Source: a phage. Taken from it: a DNA stretch of 64,000 bases. Below, in pieces: positions 3,231-45,004 of this stretch (positions within the stretch are counted from its first letter, which is position 1; every line of letters begins with the position of its first letter). The position numbers and the translations under genes are program-made. The stretch is taken from the sequence record PZ445551.1; one strand, written 5' to 3'. The notes beneath the pieces are model-generated. The model worked only from the letters and a program-made list of their open reading frames with translations. It did not search any database and was not told where the DNA came from.

Positions 3231-3240
3231 GGTGAATCAA

Positions 3241-3839: not shown

Positions 3840-3845
3840 AAAGTA

Positions 3846-3904: not shown

Positions 3905-3927
3905 AGGTAATCAAAAAGGTAAATACT

Positions 3928-4317
3928 ATGCGCAACCTGGTTTCTGTTTCTAACGTTGAAAAATTTCAATCCTTGCAGGGTATCGTTAACAACGTAGCGC
4001 CTTTTTTAGTCAATGGCTTGATTGCAAAGATGAAAAATAAACATCATGCGGCATGGTCTGCTTACTGCTTTGATAATGATGAAAAAGCGGCTGAAATGAT
4101 GTTAGATATGCTGTTAAATAGTGTAGAAACATCTTTACCGGAAAACATCGCAGAAGAGATCACCTATCGTTATAATATGGCGATCACTTACCAGGAGGTT
4201 GCGCAATTTAATATGATGGATGATGACGAACAACAGGATCAGGAAATGTTTTGGGAGTATGCAGATCGTCAATCGGCTTTTGATGAAAAGTTAGCGATGT
4301 ATTATAACGAATATTAA
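3928..4317 (+). CDS. hypothetical acidic protein (129 aa)
   Basis: track ORF 3892..4317 starts inside the hairpin loop; trimmed to ATG 3928. Confidence 0.5.
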   Translation: MRNLVSVSNVEKFQSLQGIVNNVAPFLVNGLIAKMKNKHHAAWSAYCFDNDEKAAEMMLDMLLNSVETSLPENIAEEITYRYNMAITYQEVAQFNMMDDDEQQDQEMFWEYADRQSAFDEKLAMYYNEY

Positions 4318-4333
4318 TACACGGTAAAAGAAA

Positions 4334-4357
4334 GGGGCGCACTAAGCGCCCTTTTTT
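4334..4357 (+). terminator. rho-independent terminator
   Basis: ggggcgc-actaa-gcgccc hairpin followed by TTTTTT. Confidence 0.65.
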
Positions 4358-4703
4358 GTATTCTTTTTTCACGATGGAAGTAACACGTAAAGAATAAACG
4401 TAAAAGGTGGTGTAAAACAGCCTAAAACCGATTATAACCGCTTAAACAAGGTAGTAATGACTAATCACCTTGCCAGGATGAAAAAGCTGTTATAAAGCTA
4501 TTTAGAGCGTTTAAAGCACATAGGAAATAATTTGCTTTTTATCTTGCCTTTTATCCTGCTTTTGATTATTATTATGGAACGGGCGGCACCTGGGGACAGG
4601 GGAAGGTAATCACCGGAAGATCCCGCTATATATTGATAGCTAATATCTATTAAACAACAAAACATCAAAGGAATAAACTATCAAATCTTTACAATTCTAC
4701 CTA

Positions 4704-4763
4704 TTGACACAGGATCACCCTTATAATAAGATGTATCCAGTAGGGCGGGAAATGGTTTCCCGC
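4704..4763 (+). promoter_or_regulatory. promoter + conserved 5'-UTR stem-loop cassette, copy 6
   Basis: TTGACA 4704-4709, 17 nt, TAAGAT 4727-4732; hairpin GCGGGAAATGGTTTCCCGC 4745-4763. Confidence 0.6.
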
Positions 4764-4782
4764 TTGATATAGGAATCATACC

Positions 4783-5016
4783 ATGATCGAACAAATTAAA
4801 AGCACTACACCAAATGTTAACGGCAATGTTTCACACTTTATCGGGGATAATGAAAGGGGTACACCATACGCCGCCGTAACCGTGCAACCTAATGGCGATT
4901 ATTGGTTTACCGTGTACGGATCATATTCTTTCGGACGCCCGGCACATGATAAGATCTTGCAAGCGGTTAAGCCTACTGGGAAGAATATCACAGCAGAAAA
5001 ATTTTATAAAAAATAG
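4783..5016 (+). CDS. hypothetical protein (77 aa)
   Basis: track ORF; RBS taggaatc. Confidence 0.55.
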   Translation: MIEQIKSTTPNVNGNVSHFIGDNERGTPYAAVTVQPNGDYWFTVYGSYSFGRPAHDKILQAVKPTGKNITAEKFYKK

Positions 5017-5516: not shown

Positions 5517-5722
5517 TACCTAAATAAAGATGATAGCTTTTACCTATCAAAAACGTTCACCGAAAAAAGTGAATAGATCGCGGTATCGAGCTAATCAAGG
5601 AGCAGATGAACAACCATACCATGAAGATCATAAGGCGCTTACAACGTGTTTTAGACCGCTTATTTTTAATTTCTCAATGTAACTATCTGGCAAAAACAGC
5701 CTTTTTCTTGTCTTTCCTCTTA

Positions 5723-5740
5723 AATGATAATCATTCTTAT
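5723..5740. promoter_or_regulatory. Fur-box-like site AATGATAATCATTCTTAT
   Basis: near match to the enterobacterial Fur box GATAATGATAATCATTATC. Confidence 0.35.
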
Positions 5741-5780
5741 TTATAGCTGATTATTTATGCAATAAACTGAATAATGCAAT

Positions 5781-5797
5781 AATGATAATCATTCTTA
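5781..5797. promoter_or_regulatory. Fur-box-like site AATGATAATCATTCTTA
   Basis: second copy, preceded by ATAATGCAAT. Confidence 0.35.
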
Positions 5798-6090
5798 ACT
5801 TATGACCATCTAACCTATAAAATAATAAGTTATCTAACTAAATTAAAACTAATTATCTCACCTTTATTTATAACTTACTGTTACTATCTCATTGATAACC
5901 TTATATTAAACAACAATAACCAATATAAATCATTACTAAGCTAAATATAATCTATCTAACCTTTAAAACTATAACTATAATCTATCGAATTGTTGCACAA
6001 AGTAACTATTAAATTGTTAGTAACATTACTAAATAATTAATATCCTATCTATTTATGATCTAATCTTTATCTTCCTATCTATTACCTAAA

Positions 6091-6121
6091 TAATCATTTC
6101 ATACAGTAATCATTTCATACA
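6091..6121. repeat. tandem direct repeat AATCATTTCATACA x2
   Basis: two adjacent near-identical 15-16 bp units. Confidence 0.5.
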
Positions 6122-6157
6122 ATAATTATAACAAGAAATATAATTCGCAAGCGTATC

Positions 6158-6192
6158 ATTAGCAGCCTATGCCGGACACATAGGCGGCTAAT
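6158..6192. repeat. 14-bp inverted repeat ATTAGCAGCCTATG / CATAGGCGGCTAAT around 7-nt spacer
   Basis: one mismatch; GC-rich island in AT-rich context. Confidence 0.5.
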
Positions 6193-6663
6193 AATAACGC
6201 AACTACACACCCCACATAATAACCATCACCGATAGTTATTATTTGTGCTTATGTAGCTTGCAACAATTGCAAGCGCAACAATATACATGGTATATTGTAT
6301 CCCTTACATTGTTGCGGTGCGTTATTATTAGCTAATGTTTAGAACATTGGCTATAATATAAGCTAAGTAATAAGCTATGCAATAATAAACATGGTGAATA
6401 ATGACATTGATGATCATAATGCGCCACCTTCCAGGGGGCGCTATGTGAACACAAAGAAATCTTTCTTGTCAAGAAAAAATATTGCCATTATTGCGCAAAA
6501 TTATTTATATCTGAATAGATGATTTTTCATACTATTGCCCCATATAACATACCTCATTTGTTGAGCATAGTTATAGCCTATTTGTTGAGCCTACTTTCTT
6601 AAAAGCGCAATAAATCAGAATTATCTTGATTTTTAGTCTGTTTTATAGTATAGAAAGTATGCA

Positions 6664-6679
6664 AATGATAATCATTATC
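6664..6679. promoter_or_regulatory. Fur-box-like site AATGATAATCATTATC
   Basis: 16/16 identity to the 3' 16 nt of the Fur-box consensus. Confidence 0.4.
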
Positions 6680-6849
6680 AGCTATCTTCCACGGGTAGCA
6701 CTATTTCACGCCAGATCATTTCATTTGGCAAGGTGTATATAGATGTTTAGACTTGCCAAGCCATTGATTTACTTAGAATTTATCTGTTTTGTTGTGAGTA
6801 GAGCCTTTCTTGCTCAGAAAATAATCAAAAGTCTTATAAGTCATTGAAT

Positions 6850-6874
6850 GATAATGCAAATGATAATTATTCTC
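6850..6874. promoter_or_regulatory. Fur-box-like site GATAATGCAAATGATAATTATTCTC
   Basis: repeat of the ATAATGCAA-ATGATAAT unit seen at 5771-5797. Confidence 0.35.
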
Positions 6875-7236
6875 ATTGATATTTGAGGGGGACGGTCGGC
6901 AGAAATCGGGGGGCGCTGAAAATCGCGTTAAGCACCTCTCGCAAGCGAGCAGTATTTTGCGGCAAGTTATTGATATTATTGGCTTTACGCTTATGAAAAG
7001 GGGGTGTGTCGAAATAAATCGGGTATACCGGAAAATTTTTGTGGCATAGATATTTATTTGTCTATATTATGTACAAAAGGGTGTGTTAAAAATATTAGGT
7101 ATATATAGAATAATTGATAGGGAAATCCTATACTAATTCCTCCATTAATGATGTTTCTATGTTACTGTTCTTGTAACAGATGAAAAGACGCTGTATGATG
7201 TGTGGCATGAAACGTAAATTTATAAAGGAGTCTGAT

Positions 7237-20313: not shown

Positions 20314-21126
20314 TTACTTAGTCAAATGATCTTCTATCATTTTTATGAAAGCAGGATTGCTAAAAGCATCTGCTGCCTTTTCTCTATAAACAAAGACTCC
20401 TCTATCTTCGTAAAGAAGAGTTTCTTCGTAATTAATTCCTGGGTTAACAACAATCATTTTTATACCCATAGTAAGTGCAGGGAATAATTCCCAATTAAAA
20501 TTGATAACTTGGTTTGAACATCCTACTACAACAACCAAATCTTGCATGGTCAAAGTATCAAACAAGTGAGCCATATCTGCATACAAAGGTGCAGCCTCAC
20601 CAAAAAATACAACATTAGGCTTCACCCAGTTATAATCATCTATGTTTATACTATTGTAACCAATGTCTACCAGTGTTTTGTAATCTCCAGGGTGCATACG
20701 GTAAACTACTTCAGGAAGATACCCGTGCACGTGAATAACAGAATCCCTGTCCACACCTGCTCGCTCTAGTAGATCATCAACGTTTGTTGTCAAGTTTACT
20801 ACTTGGTTAGGATATTCCTTAAACCACTTTGCTATTTGAATATGTGCAGCATTAGGTTGTACATCTTTAAGCTCAACACGTCTTTTGTTATAAAATTCGT
20901 GTGTTTTGGCATACAAGTCCATACCGTTCTCGTCTACACCACCGACCACTGGAAGATCTGGAGATGTTCTCACACGATAACCTGCTTGGAAAGCTCCAAT
21001 ATCGCAGACCTCTTCTAAATCATATTCTTCCCACAAGGCACGACCACTATCTGTGTCTGTTCGGAATGTTCGAATCCCACTGTCTGCACTTAAACCTGCG
21101 CCACTAACAAAAATTACTCTTCGCAT
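20314..21126 (-). CDS. Sir2-family (sirtuin-like) NAD+-dependent protein, no zinc-ribbon cysteines
   Basis: N-terminal GAGLSADSGIRTFR matches sirtuin GAGxSxxxGIPxFR; VIHVHG catalytic His; 270 aa. Confidence 0.7.
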   Translation of the reverse strand: MRRVIFVSGAGLSADSGIRTFRTDTDSGRALWEEYDLEEVCDIGAFQAGYRVRTSPDLPVVGGVDENGMDLYAKTHEFYNKRRVELKDVQPNAAHIQIAKWFKEYPNQVVNLTTNVDDLLERAGVDRDSVIHVHGYLPEVVYRMHPGDYKTLVDIGYNSINIDDYNWVKPNVVFFGEAAPLYADMAHLFDTLTMQDLVVVVGCSNQVINFNWELFPALTMGIKMIVVNPGINYEETLLYEDRGVFVYREKAADAFSNPAFIKMIEDHLTK

Positions 21127-21683
21127 TCAATATCCTCTTCGTAATCATCATCCCAAGAAGATGCGTCGTAACGCTCTTCCTCTTCGAAATCCCAATTAAT
21201 TTCTACTCCAAAATCTAAAAACAATTTAACAATGTTTTCTGTAGAGTAGTATTTATCATAAGCGTCAGCTAGTTCCCAATACTTGTCACTCAATTTTTTA
21301 TATTTAGGATCATTATAGTCATAATCTACTTTATAACCATAATCATACATCTCTTGTTCAGCTTTAAGCATAGCTTCTGGTGTAAGAAGATTAGGGAACG
21401 GACGATTTCTTTCTTTTAACTTAGAAACAATCCAGTTTGCAACATTTGCCACTTCACCATCTTGATTATCACCTAAACAACTTGCATAATCTCCATCTTC
21501 GTAAGTGCCTAAATCCCCACAGACCACATGTACAATACTTGAATACGATCCACACGTTTCACAATCTGAAAAAGTGTCTACTGTTGTAATATCAATAGAT
21601 AAAACTGGTAAAGCCATAGCTTCTTTCACACAAGCCTCCTCATATAATAACATATCATCAAAACCCATATATCCTCCACACAA
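21114..21683 (-). CDS. acidic hypothetical protein co-transcribed with Sir2-like gene
   Basis: track ORF; 13-nt overlap with Sir2-like start; very acidic C-terminus. Confidence 0.5.
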   Translation of the reverse strand: MCGGYMGFDDMLLYEEACVKEAMALPVLSIDITTVDTFSDCETCGSYSSIVHVVCGDLGTYEDGDYASCLGDNQDGEVANVANWIVSKLKERNRPFPNLLTPEAMLKAEQEMYDYGYKVDYDYNDPKYKKLSDKYWELADAYDKYYSTENIVKLFLDFGVEINWDFEEEERYDASSWDDDYEEDIECEE

Positions 21684-21722: not shown

Positions 21723-22331
21723 TTATACCAGACTTTTAAGGTACTTGTCAAGGGCTTCTTGATCACCTTGACAAACATAGCAACGGAAGTCTTGAGCAGA
21801 AGGTTCTTTGTCCTCGTCCCAATCCCAATAGACAGTACCTTTATAACGTGAGCCTGGGAACTCGAAATATGCTGTATGAGTAATATGATGTGGGCCACCC
21901 CAAAACTGTGTAAAAGTAAATTGAGGATACGCTGCTTTAACTGTATTTTCAAACCAAGTTTTACGATCTAATGCTTCGTTTATAAAATAAGCATGGCGTT
22001 CCATTTCATCCCAGTTTTTCCAAACGCATTTTTCATCCAGAGAAAAAACAAAATCTTCACTGTTGAATTCATCTGTATCTTCCAAAATATCATAATCATG
22101 TGCACTAGGTATCCACCATCCAGCTTCTAATAGTGCTTTCACGGGTACAAAACCTTTTTCAGCATATTGATCAAATTCTTTTACTCTACGTACAGTGCAG
22201 TATTCATCTTCACCACCAATGTCCAGTAGAAAAGCACCTTTGCGTCTTGCTGCAAGACCATGTGTATCAAAAACTACAACACTACCTTCACCATCTTCAC
22301 GATCTACTTGATATGCAACTTTTTGAGTCAT
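21723..22331 (-). CDS. hypothetical protein (202 aa)
   Basis: track ORF 21723..22487 trimmed to ATG 22331 so it no longer overlaps the methyltransferase gene. Confidence 0.45.
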   Translation of the reverse strand: MTQKVAYQVDREDGEGSVVVFDTHGLAARRKGAFLLDIGGEDEYCTVRRVKEFDQYAEKGFVPVKALLEAGWWIPSAHDYDILEDTDEFNSEDFVFSLDEKCVWKNWDEMERHAYFINEALDRKTWFENTVKAAYPQFTFTQFWGGPHHITHTAYFEFPGSRYKGTVYWDWDEDKEPSAQDFRCYVCQGDQEALDKYLKSLV

Positions 22332-26688: not shown

Positions 26689-27261
26689 TTAATGTGTTAA
26701 TGAAACTGCGTAACTAAACACAGGTTCAGATATTACATCGGCTACAGTAATAAAAACGTCTTCGTCTTGAGTTGTTTCTACACGACATACAGTTACACCA
26801 TTCACCACGAATTCAACGCAATGTGGAATATCTTCACAAACGAAGGTAGTGTAAGTAACACCCAAAGCATCATACAAAGATTTAACAGTGTTTGCAAGTG
26901 CCGCAGTTTCTTCTTTTTCTGAGACAATGAATGCTGTAACAACAAGATTGTTTGCATAGTTTAGACTGTCCTCTATAGCCAATGATTTACAAGGTAGTAA
27001 TGCAAAATATTTACCTGGTTTAATCAGACCTGCTTCCCATTGATTCAAAATTGCTTGGGATGGTTTAGTAATATAAAACAGATTTTCACTTGGGTTATCA
27101 ATATTACTTCTGGCGATACAACGTGAAGGATTATTAATATCAAACACATGATCAAAATCTACACAAACTGGTAAACTGAAAGGTGTGAATTTTTTACCTA
27201 ATAATCCTACTGCTGACAATATGTTTGCTGTGCTTATCTTCCCGTTAAAAGCTAAACGCAT
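26689..27261 (-). CDS. hypothetical protein (190 aa)
   Basis: track ORF. Confidence 0.5.
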   Translation of the reverse strand: MRLAFNGKISTANILSAVGLLGKKFTPFSLPVCVDFDHVFDINNPSRCIARSNIDNPSENLFYITKPSQAILNQWEAGLIKPGKYFALLPCKSLAIEDSLNYANNLVVTAFIVSEKEETAALANTVKSLYDALGVTYTTFVCEDIPHCVEFVVNGVTVCRVETTQDEDVFITVADVISEPVFSYAVSLTH

Positions 27262-27485: not shown

Positions 27486-28148
27486 TTATTTAATATTCAA
27501 TTTTGCACAAAGACGTTGTACCGCTTTGGCATCGAACAAACTCCCACGAATAGTTCTCTTTCCTGATTCATTCAGATGTTTTGCAATCGTCATATATGGC
27601 GTTTTACAAGCTCTGTATGCAACTAAAGAATCTTTTAAAGAAAGCGCAAACTCTTTTGAGCGTTTTGCTTCTTCCGTTTTCGTATAATCTGTTCTTTTGT
27701 ATTTAGGGTTTGCTGCACCAAGAAGCGTTCCCTTCGCTTTTGCTACTTTAAGGCTCTTCTTAACACGATCAGATATTGCACGAGCCTCTTCTTCTGCCAG
27801 AACTGCTAAAATATTTATTATCATATTTTCAGCGGAGGGCATAGTTGCTATTCGTACATTAATCATCTCTAACAAGGTTGCAACAGAAGCTGTGTTACGT
27901 CCAAGACGGTCAACCTTAGCAACAACAAGTGTAGCACCTGTTTCTTTGCAAAGATTAACAGCTTTTACAAGCTCTCTACGTTGCTTCCAATCGCCTTTAC
28001 CCGAATAAAACTCTGCAAAGCTACCTACAATAGTATAATTTTCTTGTGAATCCAGGAAGCGTTGGATATCTGCTTCCTGTGATTCTATACCATACTGGTT
28101 GCCTTGTTGTTTCTTCTTAGAAAGTCGATGATACAGTACAAACTTCAT
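27486..28148 (-). CDS. serine recombinase (resolvase/invertase family)
   Basis: RLSKKKQ catalytic-Ser region, VVAKVDRLGRNTASVATLLE, AVLAEEEARAISDRVKKSLKVAKAKG, C-terminal HTH. Confidence 0.8.
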   Translation of the reverse strand: MKFVLYHRLSKKKQQGNQYGIESQEADIQRFLDSQENYTIVGSFAEFYSGKGDWKQRRELVKAVNLCKETGATLVVAKVDRLGRNTASVATLLEMINVRIATMPSAENMIINILAVLAEEEARAISDRVKKSLKVAKAKGTLLGAANPKYKRTDYTKTEEAKRSKEFALSLKDSLVAYRACKTPYMTIAKHLNESGKRTIRGSLFDAKAVQRLCAKLNIK

Positions 28149-28205
28149 AATACCCTCCTGTTCTGTTACAGGAAGTATGCACTACCTTAACGTTAAAGTC
28201 AACAG

Positions 28206-29620: not shown

Positions 29621-30274
29621 TTAATTATCAGAGGACACTTTATCAAGTTTTTCAGAGACTGTCAATACTTTTTCTTGTGATTCTTTCATTTCTGCTAAAA
29701 TACTTTCAGCTTCATCACTATCAGGATCACCAGTCAACAGCATACTAATTAGTTGCTCCTTGCTGAAGTTCAGAATATCTTCCGCTGTTAGCTCCAGTTG
29801 TTCTTCGATCTCTTCAATAAAAGTTTCACCGCCGGAAAAAGCATCTCGTAGTTTTGCAACTTCCATCGCTTCTTCTGGAGTTGCCCCTGCATCTAAAGCT
29901 GCTAAAGCAAAATCTGCCCCACTACCAACAGCATAATAATCTTCAGTTAAAGGATATGCTCGCGTGGGATTATTACCCTCGTGCATATAAATTTTACCGT
30001 CTGGGTGAACAACCAATGCCACAAATTCTTCATCTTCTTTATCAGGATCTGACTGGATCACCAAACCTGGGATTGTCTCTTGTGCTGCTTGGCATTGTAA
30101 GTTTTGTTCGAACCAAGAAAAGAAAGTCAGGATAGAAGACAGACGTCCTGCACCACCAACAAGGTAGTCCCCAATTTTACGCACTTTCTTGAAATTTAAA
30201 GTGTCTACACGACTACCTACTGTTACTTTACCGTCAGACAGAATTTTGTTACGTGTTGCAATAATTGTTGTCAT
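29621..30274 (-). CDS. HslV-like Ntn-hydrolase (proteasome beta-type) protease subunit
   Basis: MTTIIATRN (Thr2), KVRKIGD, GGAG, AVGSGADFALAAL resemble HslV; acidic C-terminal extension. Confidence 0.6.
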   Translation of the reverse strand: MTTIIATRNKILSDGKVTVGSRVDTLNFKKVRKIGDYLVGGAGRLSSILTFFSWFEQNLQCQAAQETIPGLVIQSDPDKEDEEFVALVVHPDGKIYMHEGNNPTRAYPLTEDYYAVGSGADFALAALDAGATPEEAMEVAKLRDAFSGGETFIEEIEEQLELTAEDILNFSKEQLISMLLTGDPDSDEAESILAEMKESQEKVLTVSEKLDKVSSDN

Positions 30275-30801: not shown

Positions 30802-31554
30802 TTAATATACTTCCGTGATGAACTGAGACAAACGGGAACGTTGGTTATCAGCAGTTGTCATTTCAACATAACCAATAAAATCCACAATAGCTTCCCTTTC
30901 TCCTTCTTCATTAATAGGAACAACACGATCTAACAAATCACCTAACCCGTTAGCTCTTCGTTTAATTGCATATGTTTGATTAACATCACCCATAATGACA
31001 ATACGTGTATTAAGACCTGCTCGCTCAAGGAGAAGTTTTACTGTATTTGGTGACATAAGTTGAACTTCATCAATAAGAATAATGCTGTTATCCCACGTAG
31101 CACCTAGTGCATAGTTTGGAATATTAAGTTCAATTTTGCCACTTGCAATATCGTTTTCCAATTTATTTGCAGTCATAAACTGTTGGAAAATTCTTTTAGT
31201 TGATTCGTAGTGTGCTGCTAGTTTATCAGTCTTATCTCCAGATAAGAAACCAATTTGATCATCACCTACTTCTGTCGGGTTTTTAAGGAAAATCAACTTT
31301 CTGAAATCACCAGCTTTAAGCATTTGCAATGCTTTCCACAGTGCTGTTGTCGTTTTTCCTGTTCCTGCTGGGGCATTAACAATGGTTAAATCATTCCAAA
31401 CCATGCTTCTTACAATAGCTTCTTGATTCCCAACAGGGGTAAATTCATCAAGACGGTAATCATCATTTCCTACTGCTTTAGCCGCATAACGACTGGCACG
31501 TTTGTCATCATTGGCTGCTGATTGACGACGAGCCTTTGCGGTTTTATTTCCCAT
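30802..31554 (-). CDS. phoH: PhoH-like ATPase
   Basis: Walker A NAPAGTGKTT and PhoH-like downstream region. Confidence 0.8.
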   Translation of the reverse strand: MGNKTAKARRQSAANDDKRASRYAAKAVGNDDYRLDEFTPVGNQEAIVRSMVWNDLTIVNAPAGTGKTTTALWKALQMLKAGDFRKLIFLKNPTEVGDDQIGFLSGDKTDKLAAHYESTKRIFQQFMTANKLENDIASGKIELNIPNYALGATWDNSIILIDEVQLMSPNTVKLLLERAGLNTRIVIMGDVNQTYAIKRRANGLGDLLDRVVPINEEGEREAIVDFIGYVEMTTADNQRSRLSQFITEVY

Positions 31555-37967: not shown

Positions 37968-38624
37968 TTAGCCTTGGAACACTGTTTTTGTTTCTGCCAA
38001 GTGATAGTATAAATCTGCCTTGTTTATAAGAGTGTTGTATACCTCTTGACAAAAATGTTCTTCCTCTTTGTAACGATTCGCTGTTTCCCTGATCGACTTG
38101 GCTTTATCTTTTAACCAAGCGAAGTGTGCCTCTTCCTCTGTAGCGAAATAGCCTAAATGCTTGCTTTTGCTTCCAGAAGTTTTGGCATAAATCTTGCCAT
38201 CTTTCCTAATATGCGCTCCGAGTAAGTATTTCCTTTTATGTCTCTTGGCATAACTTAAAAGTGTATTGATATAGGGAGGAACAAACCTACAATATTCAGG
38301 ACAATAGACAGTATTTCCCTCAAGAACAAGATCTTTGTCTAAAACAAAACCTTCGACATTGTGTTCTTGATACCAATTATCAAAATTTGAAAAAGTAAAC
38401 CAAGCATCACAGACGGTAACATCTTTATACCCTGGTCTAATATCTTCCATCTTATATGCACGATGAAACATGCCTTTCCAAGCTGCATAGGAAGGGTCTA
38501 TGAATGTGTTAACCCTTTTCCCGTTGACAACGCCACCTTCCCACAATCTACGTTCAACATCCACAATCAAGGGGATTTCTCCCCTCTCTGTGAGAACAGT
38601 AACTTTACGTTTACCCTTCTTCAC
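37968..38624 (-). CDS. putative homing endonuclease with AP2-like DNA-binding domain
   Basis: HLGYFATEEEAHFAW AP2-like motif; free-standing between nrdA and nrdB. Confidence 0.55.
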   Translation of the reverse strand: MKKGKRKVTVLTERGEIPLIVDVERRLWEGGVVNGKRVNTFIDPSYAAWKGMFHRAYKMEDIRPGYKDVTVCDAWFTFSNFDNWYQEHNVEGFVLDKDLVLEGNTVYCPEYCRFVPPYINTLLSYAKRHKRKYLLGAHIRKDGKIYAKTSGSKSKHLGYFATEEEAHFAWLKDKAKSIRETANRYKEEEHFCQEVYNTLINKADLYYHLAETKTVFQG

Positions 38625-38632
38625 CTGTCCTC

Positions 38633-40897
38633 CTACATTTTACAGGCGCTACACCCCTCGTCTTCAGAATCTTCTTGAGCGAGTGAGGATGCCGATTTTG
38701 TTCTGCTATTTAGATAGTACAAAGATTTACCACCAAGTTTTGCAAACTGAAGAATATATTGCATTTCTGATTTAATGGATAAACGACCACCTTCCATCTT
38801 AGAGTAGTCAATCCACTTATCACATGATGCACCTTGATCTAAGAATTTAGTCAACAGGCCATATGCTTCAGCCATATCTTTATCTGGCGTATCCCAAGCC
38901 GATTGGTAAATATCTTTTAGTTTATCGTAATCTGGCACAATAAACAGAACATTACCTTTTTGGCTTTGTTTATAAACTATAGTATCACGTACAGGATACA
39001 CAGAGTTAGTCGTATTACTTACAAGACTACTGGACTCATTTGGAGCAATAGCTGCTAATACGCTATTTCGGATACCACCTTGTGCAATGATATCTTGTCG
39101 TAAACCTTCCCAATCCATTTTAAGTTTAAAATTGCCAATATCGTCTACAGCTTTAGCGTAGGTGTCAATAGGCAACCATCCTTCAGGCCATTTGGTTTTA
39201 TGCATCCATTCTGCATTACCTTTCTCTTTTGCCAAACGAAGAGAAGCTCTTGCTAACCAATAATAATGTCTTTCTGCTAATTCGTGAATTAGTTTTTTGC
39301 CGTAAGGATCTGAATAAGTAACAAAATTACTTGCCAGATAATGTGCAAGGTTTGTAATACCTACACCGATAGACCTACGTGCTTTAGCAGTGATTTCGTT
39401 ATGTTTAAACGGATACTGCATTGTTTCAATAACATTATCAATAGTCAGAACGGTATAATATGCAACATCTTCATATTCTTCTGGTGTAACACGACCAGCT
39501 ACAATAGAAGACAGGAAGCATAATGCCAATTCTTGATCTTCTGTATTCTCACCTGTGAAAAGATCAGTCATATTGTGAAATGCTTTCGTAGGTAAGAAAA
39601 TTTCTTGGCACAAGTTTGACTGGTAAATAACATCCTTAAACGGAGTATGTTTATTAGCATTATCCGCAAAGAACATATAAATACGTCCTGTCTCTGCTCT
39701 TTGTGTAATAATTTCTGCCAGAAGATCTCGTGCTTTTACAAACTTCTTCTTAATTCGTTTGCGACTAACTTTTTCATATACTTCTTCAAACTCTTCCTCG
39801 CTTTTATAAAGCGCCTCATAGAGTTCTGGTGCTTCGTCATAACTGACTAGCATCCAATCTTTACCTTTTGCTGCACGGCGCAGGAAAGCATTGTTTACTA
39901 CAATAGAGTAATCAAGTTTATCTACTCGTTTTTCACTAACAGTAGTTGGGTTTTTCAAACGTACCAGATCTTCAAAATCAGGTTCTAGTATTGTAAACGT
40001 TACTGTTGCACTTCCACCACGGCTTGCTTGTTTTGATGCTCCAACACTTGTTTCCATCCATTTCAGATATGGTAAAAGACCACCGTGAACGATACGGTTG
40101 TTCTTAACACCTTGTCCTGTAGCACGGGTTTGGAGGTTAACACCAATACCTGCATTATTCAATGTATATTCATGAGCAAGATAGTTAGCAATTGCTAAAG
40201 ATTCTGCTGTATCATCTGCTCTAAACAGGCAACAAGAAGCACTACCTTTAATCTTAGTACGCAAAGTTGTTAAATAAGGTGATGGTAAGTTAATCTTAAG
40301 ATCACTTACGTAGGTATATAGACGTTTAATGTCTTCTACTCTGCGATCTTTTGGTTGAATTTCCATTACCTTCATTGCTACACCAATGAATAAAAACTGT
40401 GGTGATTCAAAAACAACATCATTGATCGCATCTTTCACAAGATACTTATCAACCATCTGGCGCAGTACGGAATAACCATAAGTTAGGTTTTTATCGTGAT
40501 TGACAATTTTACCAATCTCAATAATTTCTTCTTCTGTATAATCCATTTTTCCCCAATAGCCTTTACTTACAGCCATATTGTAGAAATCCAGGAGGGAGGG
40601 GATATTATGATATCCCCCATGAGCCTGTTTATAAATCATACCAAGAAGTAACCGACCTGCCATATCACTATATGCCTGATCTTTCTTATCAATACATGCT
40701 GCTATCATAGCTTTATGTAAATCACGAGTAGGCACACCGTCGTAACAACGTTTAACAGCTTCAAGTTCAATTTCAGACCAATTTAATTTACCAGCAGCAA
40801 ACTCTGACCATTTACGAAGTTTTTCTGGATTAAATTCTTCTTTCTTGCCGTTTGTTTTTGTTACATAACGGATAGATTTGCTTAGATACTGAGTCAC
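38633..40897 (-). CDS. nrdA: ribonucleotide reductase class Ia alpha subunit
   Basis: 754 aa; conserved RNR large-subunit core with catalytic Cys and C-terminal CSAC. Confidence 0.9.
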   Translation of the reverse strand: MTQYLSKSIRYVTKTNGKKEEFNPEKLRKWSEFAAGKLNWSEIELEAVKRCYDGVPTRDLHKAMIAACIDKKDQAYSDMAGRLLLGMIYKQAHGGYHNIPSLLDFYNMAVSKGYWGKMDYTEEEIIEIGKIVNHDKNLTYGYSVLRQMVDKYLVKDAINDVVFESPQFLFIGVAMKVMEIQPKDRRVEDIKRLYTYVSDLKINLPSPYLTTLRTKIKGSASCCLFRADDTAESLAIANYLAHEYTLNNAGIGVNLQTRATGQGVKNNRIVHGGLLPYLKWMETSVGASKQASRGGSATVTFTILEPDFEDLVRLKNPTTVSEKRVDKLDYSIVVNNAFLRRAAKGKDWMLVSYDEAPELYEALYKSEEEFEEVYEKVSRKRIKKKFVKARDLLAEIITQRAETGRIYMFFADNANKHTPFKDVIYQSNLCQEIFLPTKAFHNMTDLFTGENTEDQELALCFLSSIVAGRVTPEEYEDVAYYTVLTIDNVIETMQYPFKHNEITAKARRSIGVGITNLAHYLASNFVTYSDPYGKKLIHELAERHYYWLARASLRLAKEKGNAEWMHKTKWPEGWLPIDTYAKAVDDIGNFKLKMDWEGLRQDIIAQGGIRNSVLAAIAPNESSSLVSNTTNSVYPVRDTIVYKQSQKGNVLFIVPDYDKLKDIYQSAWDTPDKDMAEAYGLLTKFLDQGASCDKWIDYSKMEGGRLSIKSEMQYILQFAKLGGKSLYYLNSRTKSASSLAQEDSEDEGCSACKM

Positions 40898-40908
40898 TTC
40901 CTCTCCTA

Positions 40909-41169
40909 TTAATTATGCATATTTAGAACATCTACATCATAACCGCCACGCATCTCGTTATATAAGCCATTTGCGTATAGAAAACCTTCAAAATGATCTA
41001 TACCTTCAAAACCTTTTGCCTTTGCTTTGCGGTCTGCTTCTTGTCTTTTTGGAGATAATCTTTTAGATGTATCAAGGATAACTGTTACATTGCAACCTAA
41101 TGTTTCATCAAAATAGACTTCAATTTCACAGCCTTCATATTTATTACTTTCTGTCATTTGGCCTCTCAA
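40909..41169 (-). CDS. hypothetical protein (86 aa)
   Basis: track ORF. Confidence 0.5.
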   Translation of the reverse strand: MRGQMTESNKYEGCEIEVYFDETLGCNVTVILDTSKRLSPKRQEADRKAKAKGFEGIDHFEGFLYANGLYNEMRGGYDVDVLNMHN

Positions 41170-41580
41170 TTAGAATTCAGAATCATCATCTCGTGATGGA
41201 TCATGTTCATTTCCGAAGTCTTCCATTTTGATATGAGAGCTACCCCAACCTGTAAAATCTTCTTCTCCAAAGTGCAAAATATCCACACCTTGATAGATTC
41301 GTTTATATTTATAGTCTTGACGAACTGGGAAAGTATACAATGTAGTATTTGCAAACACCACACGTCGATTGTTGTTACTACGAATATTAACACCACGTTC
41401 TACTGTATAATGTCCATCGGTAGACATACCAAGCATTACTAATGCTGCTCGCAATGTAGTGTTATGATACTCGTGAGGAATTTTTCCTCCGTGCTTTTTA
41501 GCCATTTCTTTCCAGATCGGTGTAGCCTTAATGGTAGACATACTTACGGTCGCCCAAATGGTTGTATTAATTAGTGACAT
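41170..41580 (-). CDS. hypothetical protein (136 aa)
   Basis: track ORF. Confidence 0.5.
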   Translation of the reverse strand: MSLINTTIWATVSMSTIKATPIWKEMAKKHGGKIPHEYHNTTLRAALVMLGMSTDGHYTVERGVNIRSNNNRRVVFANTTLYTFPVRQDYKYKRIYQGVDILHFGEEDFTGWGSSHIKMEDFGNEHDPSRDDDSEF

Positions 41581-41677
41581 AAATTCTCCTTCTCTCTTTT
41601 AAGGAGAGCATAGCTCTCCTAACGTTAGCCTATACTACACGAATCTCAATTAAAAGTCAACTATAATTTTAAGTTGA

Positions 41678-42649
41678 TCACCATTTTGTATGGTTAGTCA
41701 AAAGTTGACGATGTTGAATCCAACCACAGAAGTTTCCACTCCACAAACGATGTTTACGATCCATATGTGTAATACCTTCTTCCCAAGAGGAAGGGAACGG
41801 AGGAATATTAATACCACCTTTCTGTTGTTTTAATCCTGACAAATCCATTTCTTTCATTGGCGTTGCCTGGTGTTCAAACGGAGATGCATGTACCTTTTGT
41901 CCAGACAGCAAACGAGAATAGATATCCAATGCTTTATCTTTAGTATCATTCAACTTACGATAACTTACCTGAGCGCAACAAGAAGCTGAAATAGCTTTTG
42001 CTTCATCTTCTGTCAACATTTTCTCGTTGGAGAAGGTTTCACCCAAGAAATAACGGATCATACCAGTTTCTGGATCTCGATCACGATTAACGTAAGGTGT
42101 ATGCCACTCCCCTGGGAAAAGAAGATATGGTTCAGAAGATTCATACAGTTTTTTAATTTCTTTAGCAAGAGCCTCAATAGTAGGATCTGCATCAGCATCT
42201 ACGCGCAACCACAAGAAGTTTTCTAATTCTGTAGTGGTTACTACAGTCTTCATACGCTGGAATGGTTCTAGTAGTCGGTTTGCAACCTGTTTATGATAAC
42301 CAGCAAGGGCAAACTCTTCTGCAAAACGTGCAGCACTTAGTGCAGCCAAGTCCCACCATTCTTTTGCAGTGTAACCTGCATCAATCAGGGCATCGTGATC
42401 TGTGCCTTTATCTTGCATACCTGGTTGGTTAGCACCAAAACGATAAGGACGTGCTGGAGATTGCCGTACCATTTCAATCAGGGTTTTAACAGGGATAGCT
42501 CGACTTGATGCGGCATTACGAGAAAACAAACGATGCGTCATCAACTCAGAGTGAATGATTCGAGGATATTCAAGTTCAAAGGTAACAATATCCTTACCTT
42601 CAGATGTTTGAGAGTGTGCAATAATTTTTGCTGAAATAGAATCTGTCAT
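41678..42649 (-). CDS. thyX: flavin-dependent thymidylate synthase
   Basis: ThyX signature HRLFSRNAASSRAIP (RHR...S motif). Confidence 0.85.
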   Translation of the reverse strand: MTDSISAKIIAHSQTSEGKDIVTFELEYPRIIHSELMTHRLFSRNAASSRAIPVKTLIEMVRQSPARPYRFGANQPGMQDKGTDHDALIDAGYTAKEWWDLAALSAARFAEEFALAGYHKQVANRLLEPFQRMKTVVTTTELENFLWLRVDADADPTIEALAKEIKKLYESSEPYLLFPGEWHTPYVNRDRDPETGMIRYFLGETFSNEKMLTEDEAKAISASCCAQVSYRKLNDTKDKALDIYSRLLSGQKVHASPFEHQATPMKEMDLSGLKQQKGGINIPPFPSSWEEGITHMDRKHRLWSGNFCGWIQHRQLLTNHTKW

Positions 42650-42658
42650 TGTTTCTCC

Positions 42659-43249
42659 TTAAGGTAGTAAAATACTTTCAATTTCTTCCCACTGATTATC
42701 TAAACCAGTGATAATTACATTAGGAAGTTTCTTTAACTCTTCCAAATATGGATCTTCGTAAATAGTGTTGAAATATATTTTCAACGTTTCATCTGGAAAC
42801 AGGACAAGATTTTCAGCCCTATCATCAATAGTTACGTCGCAAGGCAATAAGTATTTTTCTTTTGTTGCGAAAAAACCATTACCAGATGTTCTACTAAAAT
42901 CCACTTTATCTAAAGACCGTGTTACGTGTCTATATTTAGAACTAAGGTGTCCACCCTTAGTGTGGCTTGCTATAGATATATTAGCTCCATTTGCAATTAT
43001 ACGATGAACAACATCTGTACTATTAGGTACTACTCCCATAGTATCATATAGATGTTGGTTATCCCAAAAAGAGTAAGGATCAACACCAAATTGCTTTTTA
43101 AAATCAGGGAAATATTTCGTAATATCATAATGCACAGTTTTATGTGTATTATCAAATTTGATATTAGATCTACTTACCGCATTTAACCAATTTAACCACT
43201 CTATATCCGCAGGAGCTATTACTAAATCCCAATCACATACTAGACGCAT
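42659..43249 (-). CDS. HAD-family 5'(3')-deoxyribonucleotidase-like protein
   Basis: track ORF trimmed to MRLVCDWDLV after RBS aggag; DxDxV-like motif I and IDDR motif. Confidence 0.45.
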   Translation of the reverse strand: MRLVCDWDLVIAPADIEWLNWLNAVSRSNIKFDNTHKTVHYDITKYFPDFKKQFGVDPYSFWDNQHLYDTMGVVPNSTDVVHRIIANGANISIASHTKGGHLSSKYRHVTRSLDKVDFSRTSGNGFFATKEKYLLPCDVTIDDRAENLVLFPDETLKIYFNTIYEDPYLEELKKLPNVIITGLDNQWEEIESILLP

Positions 43250-43796
43250 TATTTCTCCTGTTATAACATTTTCTACACATTGTTTCGTAAATGTCTTCTC
43301 CCCCAATAACAATCTGTTCTTTAGAGTCGATAAGTCTAGCATTGAAAATAGCTTTTCTTCCACATTTACAAATGCTTTTCAATTCTGTAATTGAATCTGC
43401 TATGGCTAATAACCGTTCAGAACCTTCAAACAATTCTGTAGCAAAATCTGTTTTAAGTCCATAACAGAATACAGGAATATCGTAATTATCTACCACATCT
43501 CCAAGAATGTCAACCATATCTTTAGTTAGGAATTGTGATTCGTCCACAAATACTGCATCTACTGGATTTTCTTTAAGCTGTGTATAAATTTCCAGCATAT
43601 CTTCTTTTGTTTTAACTGGTTTTGCTTCCTCTTTAATACCTATCCTAGAAGCAATAGCACTACCAGATCTGGTATCTAAAGCTGAAGTTAAAAGAAGAAC
43701 TTTCATATTTCTTTCTTTATAGTTCCAAGCTGTTTGTAGAAGATGTGTGCTTTTACCACTGTTCATTGGACTATATCGGAAATAAAGTTTAGCCAT
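43233..43796 (-). CDS. tdk: thymidine kinase
   Basis: Walker A SPMNSGKST, CxxC zinc pairs in C-terminus. Confidence 0.85.
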   Translation of the reverse strand: MAKLYFRYSPMNSGKSTHLLQTAWNYKERNMKVLLLTSALDTRSGSAIASRIGIKEEAKPVKTKEDMLEIYTQLKENPVDAVFVDESQFLTKDMVDILGDVVDNYDIPVFCYGLKTDFATELFEGSERLLAIADSITELKSICKCGRKAIFNARLIDSKEQIVIGGEDIYETMCRKCYNRRNNASSM

Positions 43797-43841
43797 ATTT
43801 TCTCCTCTAACGCTCCCATTTGTGGGAGCGATAATACTTTA

Positions 43842-44417
43842 TTATTTCTCTTCGTCAAGAAGAATTTTTACTATCTGTTTTCTTCGCTTATTTACTGTAC
43901 TTTCTGGTGAAATTCCGCGCTTCGTTAGCCAATTTTTATCCTTTTTAGACTGGCACAAAGCTATCGCTTCCTTCTCCGCTTTTGCTTCCCTGAATGTCAT
44001 ATCGTGCTTGTCAGCATAAGCCAGGATAGCGTTACACTGCTTACAAACTACACGCAGGTCGTCTTCTGTTACATACAATAGGCGTAAAACAAAACTTGGG
44101 ATATCTTCATAACAGGTTAATGTACCTGCTGCATTAATATGGTCTACTTGAAAGTCTTTCATACCTCCTGTGTGTCCACACAATTCACATTTACAATTCC
44201 AAACCTGTTTCGGTTTGCCTGTTTTCTTATCTAAAACTATATTGCCATCTTTATCCAATCTATCGGCTTTAAATCGTACAGATTGGATCTTTTTTATCTT
44301 ATTCGGGTGTCTCACCCATGCTTTCCTTAAGCAACCCCTTAAATATGTATAAAAGGCTGCTTGAGTTTTCCAAGGTGTTCCATCTCCCCAAATAACTTTA
44401 GGTTCTTTATTTTCCAA
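43842..44417 (-). CDS. HNH endonuclease
   Basis: CKCELCGH...DHINA...CKQCN HNH/zinc motif. Confidence 0.65.
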   Translation of the reverse strand: MENKEPKVIWGDGTPWKTQAAFYTYLRGCLRKAWVRHPNKIKKIQSVRFKADRLDKDGNIVLDKKTGKPKQVWNCKCELCGHTGGMKDFQVDHINAAGTLTCYEDIPSFVLRLLYVTEDDLRVVCKQCNAILAYADKHDMTFREAKAEKEAIALCQSKKDKNWLTKRGISPESTVNKRRKQIVKILLDEEK

Positions 44418-44601
44418 TAGTGCTCACCTTTTTAGCTACATAATCTCCAGGTGGAATGTTATACTTAAAGAAAAGCATACGGTCTAAACCAGCCTTACAC
44501 ATGTTTTCTGGGATTGTGATTGTATATAAGAGTTTATCTCCACGTTTATTGTATATTTTATATACTTCACCCTCTCCGTATTGTTTACCGTGAGAAGCCA
44601 T
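44407..44601 (-). CDS. hypothetical protein (64 aa)
   Basis: track ORF. Confidence 0.45.
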   Translation of the reverse strand: MASHGKQYGEGEVYKIYNKRGDKLLYTITIPENMCKAGLDRMLFFKYNIPPGDYVAKKVSTIGK

Positions 44602-44986
44602 CTACACTCTCCTTCAATTGTTCAATAGCATCTGCTGCTTCAATGTACTTACCTTTATACATTGCTTTTAAAGCCTTACGAACAAGATCATCGTCTGTGT
44701 ATAAATCAATTAGCTGGTTAGCTAACTCAATTTTTACAGGGTTTTTTAGATTAGGGTAGGCTTCATACAACATATTGTAATACTTATCACTTAATTCTTT
44801 TTCAATATGAATAACGTGAATCGCTTTGTTTAGGTTGATCACACGATCACCTTTGTTTCGACAAGCATACTTAGCTAACTTAGTGAAACAAGGAGTTGCA
44901 CCAATTAGATATGCAAGTTCCAAAGGTTGCATACGCATACGTTTGTAGTGATCACCATCAATTTGAATATCCAGTGCTGTAGTCAT
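44585..44986 (-). CDS. hypothetical protein (133 aa)
   Basis: track ORF. Confidence 0.5.
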   Translation of the reverse strand: MTTALDIQIDGDHYKRMRMQPLELAYLIGATPCFTKLAKYACRNKGDRVINLNKAIHVIHIEKELSDKYYNMLYEAYPNLKNPVKIELANQLIDLYTDDDLVRKALKAMYKGKYIEAADAIEQLKESVDGFSR

Positions 44987-45004
44987 AAATCCTCCAAAAA
45001 TAAA

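What the first reader, a model, noticed from the sequence alone, without database searches (positions are those of the whole stretch)
27486..28148. Serine recombinase in an apparently virulent phage module
A clear resolvase/invertase-family protein (VDRLGRNTASVATLLE, AVLAEEEARAISDRV, C-terminal HTH) sits among small unknown genes, with no tail-fibre genes or repressor in the window. It could drive inversion of a nearby segment, resolve replication multimers, or mark a mobile cassette.
Basis: partly seen in the sequence, partly recalled or inferred. Interest (0 to 1): 0.45.

Follow-up and report, generated by a model that had tools for sequence, protein, structure and literature searches.

The report
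Conserved serine recombinase of phi92-like phages
The ORF is a real, intact serine recombinase gene (phage phi92 gp053), already annotated in dozens of published genomes of these strictly lytic E. coli phages; it is strongly conserved, but no target site, inverted segment or prophage form could be found, so what it does is still unknown.

Summary
Window 27486-28148 (-) encodes a 220-aa serine recombinase: Pfam Resolvase E=8e-22, with catalytic R8, S10, D80, R81 and R84 intact. The window is Escherichia phage VivaForever (63,999 of 64,000 bases), a virulent phi92-like myovirus. The gene is phi92 gp053 and is already annotated as DNA invertase, resolvase or serine recombinase in many GenBank records.

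New here:
- It is under strong purifying selection (dN/dS about 0.07-0.17).
- It keeps the same position in lineages down to about 50% identity.
- It has its own sigma-70-type promoter in every lineage checked except one with a mis-called start.
- Relatives' C-terminal domains match the first half of the large-serine-integrase "Recombinase" domain, not the resolvase HTH.
- Phapecoctavirus lacks it at this site (a clean empty site) and carries a more divergent copy in its early block.
- One isolate (Schickermooser) has a decayed copy.

Comparing about 95% of the genome with about 56 relatives shows no inversion, and there are no paired repeats or res-like array. No bacterial genome encodes a close relative. 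So the invertase and integrase readings are disfavoured. A single-site, resolvase-type role on phage DNA is the best remaining guess and is unproven. This is an ordinary, known kind of gene with an unresolved function.

The parts
27486..28148 (-). Serine recombinase CDS, 220 aa plus stop; orthologue of phi92 gp053
   Evidence: ORF list; Pfam PF00239 at 78.3 bits; PHROG 125; 100% identical to the annotated 'DNA invertase' of VivaForever and phi92.
27834..28148 (-). Catalytic alpha/beta domain, about residues 1-105. It includes R8, the nucleophile S10 (codon TCT at 28119-28121), R57, D80, R81 and R84.
   Evidence: These residues are invariant or nearly invariant in the 26-sequence family alignment, down to about 30% identity. 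The AF2 model has pLDDT mostly above 85 in this region. Foldseek matches the Sin, gamma-delta and Bxb1 catalytic domains.
27735..27827 (-). Long helix E (residues 108-138), the dimer/tetramer interface helix of serine recombinases; contains the invariant E121 and R128
   Evidence: AF2 secondary structure H108-138; alignment; phmmer alignments to Tn3, gamma-delta and Sin.
27501..27689 (-). C-terminal four-helix DNA-binding domain (residues 154-216), joined by a disordered linker (139-153)
   Evidence: AF2 model. The C-terminal domains of family members match positions 4-51 of the 102-position Pfam PF07508 'Recombinase' profile, at E from 6e-8 to 7e-4. No member matches HTH_7. The window protein's own C-terminus gives no hit.
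28174..28202 (-). Sigma-70-type promoter of the recombinase gene: TTGACT, 17 nt, CATACT
   Evidence: Consensus scan. A TTGACA/TTGACT box followed 17-18 nt later by a -10-like hexamer precedes the gene in 10 of the 11 orthologues printed, including the relocated Phapecoctavirus copies and a Vibrio phage. The exception is L013, whose called start is extended upstream. Only the -35 box, parts of the -10 box and the RBS are conserved in the spacer. This is a consensus match supported by conservation; it has not been shown experimentally.
28153..28159 (-). Ribosome-binding site AGGAGGG, 4 nt upstream of the ATG
   Evidence: Read directly from the sequence; conserved among orthologues.
28149..28205 (-). 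57-bp non-coding spacer between the upstream 67-71-aa gene and the recombinase gene. With the ORF it forms the roughly 0.7-kb unit that is absent from the Phapecoctavirus empty site.
   Evidence: Three-way alignment of two occupied sites and one empty site. An equivalent spacer of about 50-145 bp is present in every syntenic lineage examined.

Best explanation
The ORF encodes an intact, catalytically competent small serine recombinase that phi92-like virulent myoviruses have carried for a long time.

Shown:
- The catalytic domain has all active-site residues.
- The gene is under strong purifying selection.
- It keeps the same place in the DNA-metabolism module across deeply diverged lineages.
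- It has its own sigma-70-type promoter.

Inferred from the enzyme family: host RNA polymerase transcribes it early. Dimers bind a short dyad-symmetric crossover site through the C-terminal helical domain. Two bound sites synapse into a tetramer. Ser10 cuts all four strands with a 2-nt stagger and forms 5'-phosphoserine links. A 180-degree subunit rotation followed by religation exchanges the strands.

Most likely role (inference, not shown): a resolvase-type reaction between two directly oriented copies of one site per genome. That would convert dimers or concatemer junctions, or the ends of the incoming DNA with its direct terminal repeats, into monomer circles, much as multimer-resolution recombinases of small plasmids and Cre/lox of phage P1 do. 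It is not an invertase of a phage segment and not an integrase. The function is accessory, because one viable isolate has lost it.
For: Identity and activity:
- Pfam, PHROG and solved-structure matches.
- R8, S10, R57, D80, R81, R84, E121 and R128 are invariant or nearly so across 26 homologues down to about 30% identity.
- The AF2 model (pLDDT 87) has the serine-recombinase fold, and the top Foldseek hits are Bxb1, Sin and gamma-delta.

Selection:
- pN is 0.09-0.14 while pS is about 0.7 (saturated), giving dN/dS of about 0.07-0.17.
- The recombinase and the methyltransferase are the least divergent genes of the neighbourhood.
- 56 records hold a copy at least 99% identical to the window protein. 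63 hold one at least 99% identical to the Phapecoctavirus copy, and the 60 listed match full-length.
- Phapecoctavirus lost the copy at this site but keeps a more divergent one: 57% identity against 65-88% for flanking core genes. This suggests pressure to keep such an enzyme.

Autonomous early expression:
- A conserved TTGACA, 17-18 nt, -10 promoter in 10 of the 11 orthologues printed.

Single-site, resolvase-type role:
- The absence of any repeated site pair is what a one-site-per-genome system predicts.
- The nearest non-phage relatives (about 35% identity, full length) are plasmid 'recombinase family' genes. Two lie on 6-7 kb non-mobilizable plasmids, one of them with Rep and ParA and neither with a transposase.
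- The gene sits among replication and recombination genes: DprA-like, exonucleases, ligase.
- The genome has fixed ends with 343-bp direct terminal repeats. A site inside the repeat would therefore be a direct-repeat pair on every injected molecule.
Against: - No recombination site has been identified. There is no res-like array of dyads next to the gene; the 57-bp spacer is conserved only at the promoter and RBS.
- Nothing links the terminal repeat to the enzyme. The terminal region is conserved only within the genus.
- To my knowledge, phages with short terminal repeats normally form concatemers by homologous recombination or annealing and package from concatemers. A monomerising resolvase is therefore not obviously useful and could even be harmful.
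- The replication mode of these phages is not described in the papers I could read.
- Schickermooser is viable with a destroyed catalytic domain.
- The plasmid analogy rests on about 35% identity and on gene content, not on any experiment.
Confidence: 0.4

Rival explanations
1. It acts on DNA other than the phage's own, such as the host chromosome, a resident prophage, a defence island, a plasmid or a co-infecting phage. As an early host-takeover or counter-defence function it would invert, delete or fuse DNA at a conserved foreign site.
For: Expression from a host-type promoter, independent of the surrounding operon. No target pair or res-like array was found in the 144 kb of the phage genome scanned. 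The Phapecoctavirus copy lies in the early small-gene block, a block I take to hold host-takeover genes (my inference). The DNA-binding domain diverges faster than the catalytic domain between phages of different hosts.
Against: No candidate host site is known and none was searched for. Serine recombinases need two specific sites. phi92-like phages infect many E. coli and Salmonella strains with variable accessory genomes, so a universal host target is not obvious. I found no precedent in the papers searched.
Confidence: 0.2
2. It is a selfish or moron-like promoter-plus-gene cassette that spreads horizontally among large virulent phages and gives them little or nothing.
For: The unit is self-contained: promoter, RBS and ORF, preceded by a terminator in KP13-16 and L014. 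Phapecoctavirus has a clean empty site at the phi92 position and a copy at another locus that is more divergent than the flanking core genes. One isolate carries a decayed copy. Related genes occur in unrelated Vibrio, Shewanella and Cellulophaga phages.
Against: The position is stable across lineages diverged to about 50% identity, and identity tracks or exceeds that of core genes, which points to vertical descent. dN/dS is far below 1 and the gene is among the most constrained in its neighbourhood. It is present at 99% identity or more in 56 and 63 database records of the two genera. There are no terminal repeats or target duplications at the junctions.
Confidence: 0.1
3. It is a DNA invertase of the Hin/Gin/Mpi type that flips a phage segment or promoter to switch host range or expression.
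For: Public annotation as 'DNA invertase' through PHROG 125. A weak NCBIfam match to the Mpi master invertase over its whole length. Invertases of temperate phages Mu and P1 switch tail fibres (established knowledge).
Against: No inverted-repeat pair better than chance near the gene or anywhere in the 144 kb scanned. About 56 related assemblies are co-linear over about 139 of 146 kb, including the tail-fibre and tailspike module. The gene is embedded in a tightly packed co-directional operon. The Mpi score is 33.5 against a cut-off of 272. No HTH_7 domain.
Confidence: 0.05
4. It has become mainly a DNA-binding regulator or architectural protein, and recombination is no longer its role.
For: In Schickermooser only the catalytic half is destroyed, while the helix E plus DNA-binding half stays an open 128-aa ORF. 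No recombination products are detectable in genome comparisons.
Against: Every catalytic residue is strictly conserved across the clade. The catalytic domain is more conserved than the DNA-binding domain, which is the opposite of what a pure DNA-binding role predicts.
Confidence: 0.07
5. It is an integrase that allows cryptic lysogeny or pseudolysogeny.
For: The fold and the C-terminal domain resemble the N-terminal parts of large serine integrases. PHROG 95 'integrase' matches at E=1.5e-25.
Against: At 220 aa it lacks the second half of the recombinase domain, the zinc-ribbon domain and the coiled coil that attP/attB selection requires. No close relative was found in one genome for each of 185,579 bacterial species, so there is no prophage form. 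There is no repressor in the window, and papers on these phages report no lysogeny genes.
Confidence: 0.03

Closest known systems
Tn3 / gamma-delta / Sin resolvases (small serine recombinases)
   Same: N-terminal catalytic domain with the Ser nucleophile and the R/D/R/R set, a long helix E, and a small C-terminal DNA-binding domain. On this basis the chemistry (2-nt staggered cuts, subunit rotation) is expected to be the same.
   Different: Only about 25 bits of sequence similarity. The C-terminal domain is not HTH_7. No adjacent multi-subsite res array and no transposon or plasmid context.
Plasmid 'recombinase family proteins' of 200-235 aa (for example on the Synechococcus pIITB3_2 and Phaeobacter pP18_i plasmids)
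   Same: Full-length alignment at about 35% identity with the same two-domain layout. They are single genes on small non-mobilizable plasmids, one of them next to Rep and ParA, with no transposase. This is the most plausible functional analogue: one site per replicon, resolving multimers.
   Different: None has been characterised experimentally as far as I could find. They sit on plasmids rather than in a virulent phage with linear, terminally repeated DNA.
Hin / Gin / Cin / Pin DNA invertases and Bacteroides Mpi
   Same: Same superfamily and similar size. The public annotation of this gene is 'DNA invertase'. Mpi aligns over its whole length.
   Different: No invertible segment, no flanking inverted repeats and no inversion isomers among about 56 genomes. 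Gin matches at only 22.6 bits. The Mpi model scores far below its cut-off.
Large serine integrases (Bxb1, phiC31, A118, CcrB)
   Same: Bxb1 is the best Foldseek hit and CcrB the best NCBIfam hit, over residues 4-212. Relatives' C-terminal domains match the first half of the PF07508 recombinase domain.
   Different: 220 aa against 450-650 aa. It lacks the rest of the recombinase domain, the zinc-ribbon domain and the coiled coil. No att sites and no prophage form.
Cre/lox of phage P1 (a functional analogue only; Cre is a tyrosine recombinase)
   Same: A phage-encoded site-specific recombinase that can cyclise terminally redundant incoming DNA and resolve dimers using one site per genome (established knowledge). 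This is the model for the proposed role.
   Different: Unrelated protein family and chemistry. P1 is temperate and maintained as a plasmid. No lox-like site has been identified here.

Membership tests
Serine recombinase superfamily (Pfam PF00239 Resolvase catalytic domain) | Profile match above the curated threshold | tested here: met
   78.3 bits against a gathering score of 23.3; residues 4-141 cover profile positions 2-144 of 145.
Serine recombinase superfamily (Pfam PF00239 Resolvase catalytic domain) | Catalytic Ser nucleophile near position 10, plus the conserved Arg/Asp/Arg/Arg set (gamma-delta R8, S10, D67, R68, R71) | tested here: met
   R8, S10, D80, R81 and R84 are present and invariant or nearly invariant in 26 homologues.
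Serine recombinase superfamily (Pfam PF00239 Resolvase catalytic domain) | Mixed alpha/beta catalytic fold followed by the long helix E | tested here: met
   AF2 model with pLDDT 87 and helix 108-138. Foldseek gives probability 1.00 to Sin, gamma-delta, Bxb1 and TP901-1.
Serine recombinase superfamily (Pfam PF00239 Resolvase catalytic domain) | Site-specific strand exchange activity | not testable with these tools
   Needs purified protein or genetics.
DNA invertases (Hin/Gin/Cin/Pin) | Invertible segment next to the gene, bounded by inverted crossover sites of about 26 bp | tested here: not met
   Within 11.5 kb only 70-86% matches of 19-31 nt, as chance gives in AT-rich DNA. In the 144 kb scanned only terminator hairpins. 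The flanking genes are co-directional and tightly packed.
DNA invertases (Hin/Gin/Cin/Pin) | Both orientations of a segment occur among isolates or populations | tested here: not met
   About 56 related assemblies are co-linear over about 139 of 146 kb. Consensus assemblies cannot exclude a minority isomer within a single lysate.
DNA invertases (Hin/Gin/Cin/Pin) | Fis-bound recombinational enhancer in the 5' part of the gene | not tested
   No reliable sequence test was available.
DNA invertases (Hin/Gin/Cin/Pin) | C-terminal HTH_7-type domain and close similarity to Hin or Gin | tested here: not met
   No HTH_7 hit. Gin (3uj3) matches at only 22.6 bits, E=8e-4.
Tn3/gamma-delta-type resolvases | res site with several dimer-binding subsites immediately upstream of the gene | tested here: not met
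   The upstream spacer is 57 bp. Across orthologues it is conserved only at the -35 box, -10 box and RBS, and it has no conserved dyads. Sites hidden inside coding DNA cannot be excluded.
Tn3/gamma-delta-type resolvases | Part of a transposon (adjacent transposase and terminal inverted repeats) or a plasmid | tested here: not met
   The neighbours are phage DNA-metabolism genes, and there are no terminal repeats at the insertion junctions.
Large serine recombinases / integrases | 400-700 aa with a complete recombinase domain, a zinc-ribbon domain and a coiled coil | tested here: not met
   220 aa. Only the first half of PF07508 is matched, and only in relatives. CcrB and XisF models score far below their cut-offs.
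Large serine recombinases / integrases | Integrated (prophage or island) form in bacterial genomes | tested here: not met
   No relative was confirmed in one genome for each of 185,579 species. This single-protein scan finds close relatives only.
IS607-type serine transposases | N-terminal MerR-like HTH followed by a C-terminal catalytic domain | tested here: not met
   The domain order is the reverse: the catalytic domain is N-terminal.
Mpi master invertase family (NCBIfam NF009949) | Score above the curated equivalog cut-off | tested here: not met
   33.5 bits against a cut-off of 272.

The most novel reading that the evidence does not exclude
An early-expressed serine recombinase of a strictly virulent phage either (a) uses a site inside the 343-bp direct terminal repeats to cyclise the injected linear genome, a Cre/lox-like step that would protect the ends and seed replication, or (b) rearranges host or competitor DNA as a takeover or counter-defence function. 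Either would be a new biological role for small serine recombinases in lytic phages.
Probability: 0.15. Interest if true: 0.6.

Novelty: already known. Interest (0 to 1): 0.27.

Why it matters
On the practical side, phi92-like and phAPEC8-like phages are candidates for phage therapy. A recombinase gene can be read as a lysogeny marker, while several genome papers on these phages say no recombinase or lysogeny gene is present. Showing that the gene is real and conserved, yet has no prophage form, no att-type architecture and no inversion target, puts that annotation in context.

On the biological side, a site-specific recombinase kept under strong purifying selection across a whole subfamily of strictly lytic phages, and apparently replaced rather than lost in one genus, has no known job. 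Finding its site would reveal either a step in how these genomes are processed or a host-directed function. As it stands it is an ordinary member of a well-known enzyme family.

Tried and rejected
1. Inverted and direct repeats as crossover sites. In the window and in the 144 kb of the genome fetched, the only exact repeats are rho-independent terminator hairpins, some fused to early-promoter boxes.
2. Inversion polymorphism. Six megablast blocks covering about 95% of the genome against about 56 relatives found none. The low coverage for Paula, ESCO8 and ESCO32 looked suspicious, but for Paula it was an artefact of how pieces were joined; local blastn shows Paula is fully co-linear. ESCO8 and ESCO32 were not rechecked individually.
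3. 'Itinerant mobile gene with many insertion sites'. KP13-16 first looked like a third site, but it keeps the MTase, small gene, recombinase order within a rearranged module. Only Phapecoctavirus differs.
4. 'Pseudogene in phAPEC8'. This was my misreading of an annotation note. phAPEC8 has an intact copy, and only Schickermooser is broken.
5. A conserved operator or res site in the upstream spacer. Only promoter and RBS positions are conserved.
6. A link between the terminal-repeat region and the recombinase. The terminal region is conserved only within the genus, and its dyads look like Fur boxes instead.
7. 'CTATCTA iterons' near the terminus are not significant: 14 matches against 8.9 +- 2.8 expected.
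8. Distant chromosomal relatives through the family alignment.
9. Literature. No paper found discusses this gene's function.

Full report
WHAT THE WINDOW IS. The 64-kb window matches Escherichia phage VivaForever (PP925843.1) at 63,999 of 64,000 bases. The one difference is at window 15231, and the window runs on the reverse strand of record 30105-94104. VivaForever is a phi92-like myovirus (genus Justusliebigvirus, subfamily Stephanstirmvirinae). The papers read report no lysogeny genes for BME3, a member of the genus, or for ESCO5/ESCO13 of the sister genus Phapecoctavirus. The window holds three blocks:
- a block of small early genes on the + strand (1 to about 20000);
- a long co-directional DNA-metabolism and replication module on the - strand (about 20000-56000);
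- a tRNA cluster plus NAMPT, PRPP-synthetase and spanin genes (about 56000-64000).

THE OBSERVATION. Pfam Resolvase (PF00239) matches residues 4-141 at 78.3 bits against a threshold of 23.3. PHROG 125 'DNA invertase' matches at E=1e-31. The solved structures it resembles by sequence are Sin, Tn3 and gamma-delta resolvases and Gin. The gene is phi92 gp053. GenBank records already label it DNA invertase, resolvase, serine recombinase, site-specific recombinase or hypothetical protein.

IS THE ENZYME INTACT AND UNDER SELECTION? I aligned 26 homologues spanning 88% to 30% identity. The active-site set R8, S10, R57, D80, R81, R84, E121 and R128 is invariant or nearly so. An AlphaFold2 model (pLDDT 87) shows:
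- the catalytic alpha/beta domain;
- the long helix E (108-138);
- a disordered linker (139-153);
- a four-helix C-terminal domain (154-216).
Foldseek returns only serine recombinases at the top: Bxb1, Sin, gamma-delta, phiC31 and TP901-1. The C-terminal domains of family members match the first half (positions 4-51 of 102) of Pfam PF07508 'Recombinase', the DNA-binding domain of large serine integrases, and none matches the resolvase HTH_7. The window protein's own C-terminus gives no Pfam hit. Between lineages, synonymous sites are saturated (pS about 0.7) while pN is 0.09-0.14, so dN/dS is roughly 0.07-0.17. Together with the adjacent methyltransferase, the recombinase is the least divergent gene of its neighbourhood. 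56 records hold a copy at least 99% identical to the window protein. 63 hold one at least 99% identical to the Phapecoctavirus copy, and the 60 listed match full-length in one piece. This is a functional gene, not a relic.

CONTEXT AND HISTORY. The gene is preceded by a 57-bp spacer carrying TTGACT, 17 nt, CATACT and a strong RBS. Of the 11 orthologues I printed, 10 have a TTGACA-type -35 box followed 17-18 nt later by a -10-like hexamer. These include the Klebsiella phages phi1_175008 and KP13-16, the metagenomic lineages at 72% and 50% identity, three Phapecoctavirus genomes and a Vibrio phage. In KP13-16 and L014 a terminator hairpin comes just before it. The exception is L013 (60% identity), whose called start is extended upstream. 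Within the spacer only these promoter positions and the RBS are conserved. The gene is therefore an autonomous unit, probably transcribed by host RNA polymerase.

Its position after the small N6-adenine methyltransferase gene, usually with one or two tiny genes in between and with the 'HisRS-like' and phosphatase genes downstream in most lineages, is kept down to about 50% identity. In those lineages its identity tracks or exceeds that of neighbouring core genes, as expected for vertical descent.

Phapecoctavirus is the exception. The syntenic module has the two flanking small genes next to each other with a 46-bp spacer, which is a clean empty site. Its recombinase lies instead in the convergent early-gene block. 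That copy is only 57% identical, whereas flanking core genes are 65-88% identical. This looks like replacement by a more distant homologue rather than simple relocation.

One isolate, Schickermooser, has a copy with six deletions (1, 1, 7, 1, 2 and 7 bp), all in the first roughly 300 bp. These destroy the catalytic domain, while the C-terminal half remains an open frame. I first thought phAPEC8 shared this defect, but it does not.

SEARCH FOR A SUBSTRATE. Repeat searches near the gene, across the window and across the 144 kb of the genome fetched found only terminator hairpins and chance-level matches. To test for inversion I compared six blocks covering about 139 of 146 kb with the roughly 56 Justusliebigvirus assemblies in the phage collection. 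Every genome is co-linear on one strand. Extra 'places' arise where a record's ends cut the block or from short repeated terminator elements, and multi-piece hits are insertions or deletions: tailspike genes, homing endonucleases, inteins and small early genes. One suspicious case, Paula, was checked directly and is co-linear. No close relative of the protein is encoded in one genome for each of 185,579 bacterial species, so there is no sign of a prophage form. The nearest non-phage relatives (about 35% identity, full length) are 'recombinase family' genes on plasmids. These include 6-7 kb non-mobilizable plasmids, one carrying Rep and ParA and neither carrying a transposase. That is the usual setting of a multimer-resolution system, but this is an inference from gene content.

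GENOME ENDS. Many records begin at window 6588. phi92 and UAB_1 annotate 343-bp direct terminal repeats, which correspond to window 6588-6930. These phages therefore have fixed ends and are not circularly permuted. This matters for any model in which the recombinase acts on genome topology. Nothing I found links the repeat to the enzyme, and the terminal region is conserved only within the genus.

INTERPRETATION.
- Shown: an intact serine recombinase gene with its own promoter-like element, long-term synteny, strong purifying selection, one replacement and one loss.
- Inferred from the family: the standard mechanism, namely dimer binding, synapsis into a tetramer, attack by Ser10 with 2-nt staggered double-strand breaks, 180-degree subunit rotation and religation.
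- Best guess at the role (about 0.4): a resolvase-type reaction at one site per phage genome, giving monomerisation or cyclisation of replicating or incoming DNA. This fits the absence of any site pair, the plasmid relatives and the replication/recombination neighbourhood. It lacks an identified site and a clear rationale in a phage that packages from concatemers.
- Rivals: action on host or competitor DNA (0.2), a selfish promoter-gene cassette (0.1), a non-catalytic regulator (0.07), a DNA invertase (0.05) and an integrase (0.03).
The public label 'DNA invertase' is not supported by any feature specific to invertases.

VERDICT. The finding is real but ordinary. It is a known, already annotated member of a well-understood enzyme family, and its biological role in strictly lytic phages is unknown. 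Of its three suggested roles, nearby inversion is disfavoured, a mobile cassette is weakly supported, and multimer resolution remains possible but untested.

Noticed in passing
window 6588-6930: The physical ends of the phage genome fall inside the window. Many records (phi92, VEcB, PHB05, W22, UAB_1) start at window 6588. phi92 and UAB_1 annotate 343-bp direct terminal repeats whose right-end copy ends at window 6930. A small tandem repeat, ATTTGTTGAGCCT x3, sits at the left boundary at 6556-6593.
   Followed up: partly
window 5722-6890 (5778-5796, 6661-6679, 6856-6874; weaker copy near 6401): Dyad-symmetric AATGATAATCATT(ATC) elements lie in the gene-poor stretch around the terminal repeat, and two of them are inside it. 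The copy at 6661 differs from the E. coli Fur-box consensus GATAATGATAATCATTATC at only 2 of 19 positions. The consensus is from my own knowledge. They may mark iron/Fur-regulated early promoters in a virulent phage.
   Followed up: partly
L011 (Escherichia phage Schickermooser NC_048196.1) about 3390-4046: The recombinase orthologue is a pseudogene. Six deletions of 1-7 bp are clustered in the catalytic-domain half, while the downstream half stays a 128-aa ORF with substitutions only. Such clustering of deletions within about 250 bp, in otherwise roughly 98%-identical DNA, is unusual.
   Followed up: yes
L008 (Escherichia phage anhysbys NC_052656.1) 22045-22090 and 5950-6621: Phapecoctavirus has a clean empty site where phi92-like phages carry the recombinase. 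It has a more divergent copy (57% identity against 65-88% for flanking core genes) in the convergent early block.
   Followed up: yes
window 1-5000 and PP925843.1 94000-98400: The early region contains repeated terminator-plus-promoter cassettes, for example GAGCGGCACTATTGCCGCCCTATGTGATA and GGCGGGAAA(C/T)(C/G)GTTTCCCGCC, with up to 42 nt identical between copies. The region is also the most variable in insertions and deletions among relatives, with 4-11 pieces per genome.
   Followed up: no
window 26689-27261 (-): The gene two places downstream of the recombinase (PHROG 4806, labelled 'histidyl tRNA synthetase', 190 aa, no Pfam hit) appears to have a paralogue, judged by the same label and length, at PP925843.1 112365-112937. 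The label looks doubtful for a 190-aa protein.
   Followed up: no
window about 38000-45000 and relatives: Two HNH homing-endonuclease genes lie in the nucleotide-metabolism module, one between the two ribonucleotide-reductase subunit genes. Some relatives annotate inteins in the UvrD-type helicase and the DNA polymerase. These are likely candidates for many of the two- and three-piece matches among otherwise co-linear genomes; I did not map which insertions account for them.
   Followed up: no
phage collection records MG065639, MG065645, MG065656, MG065689, MG065650: Records named 'Campylobacter phage' with host C. jejuni are 97-99% identical to these E. coli phages over their genomes. They are probably mislabelled or contaminant assemblies.
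   Followed up: no
window 29621-30274 (-), 20418-21230 (-) and 30802-31554 (-): The module around the recombinase encodes an HslV/proteasome-like peptidase, a Sir2-family deacetylase and a PhoH-like ATPase. The Sir2 and PhoH-like genes are among the most conserved between genera, at 81% and 76%.
   Followed up: no
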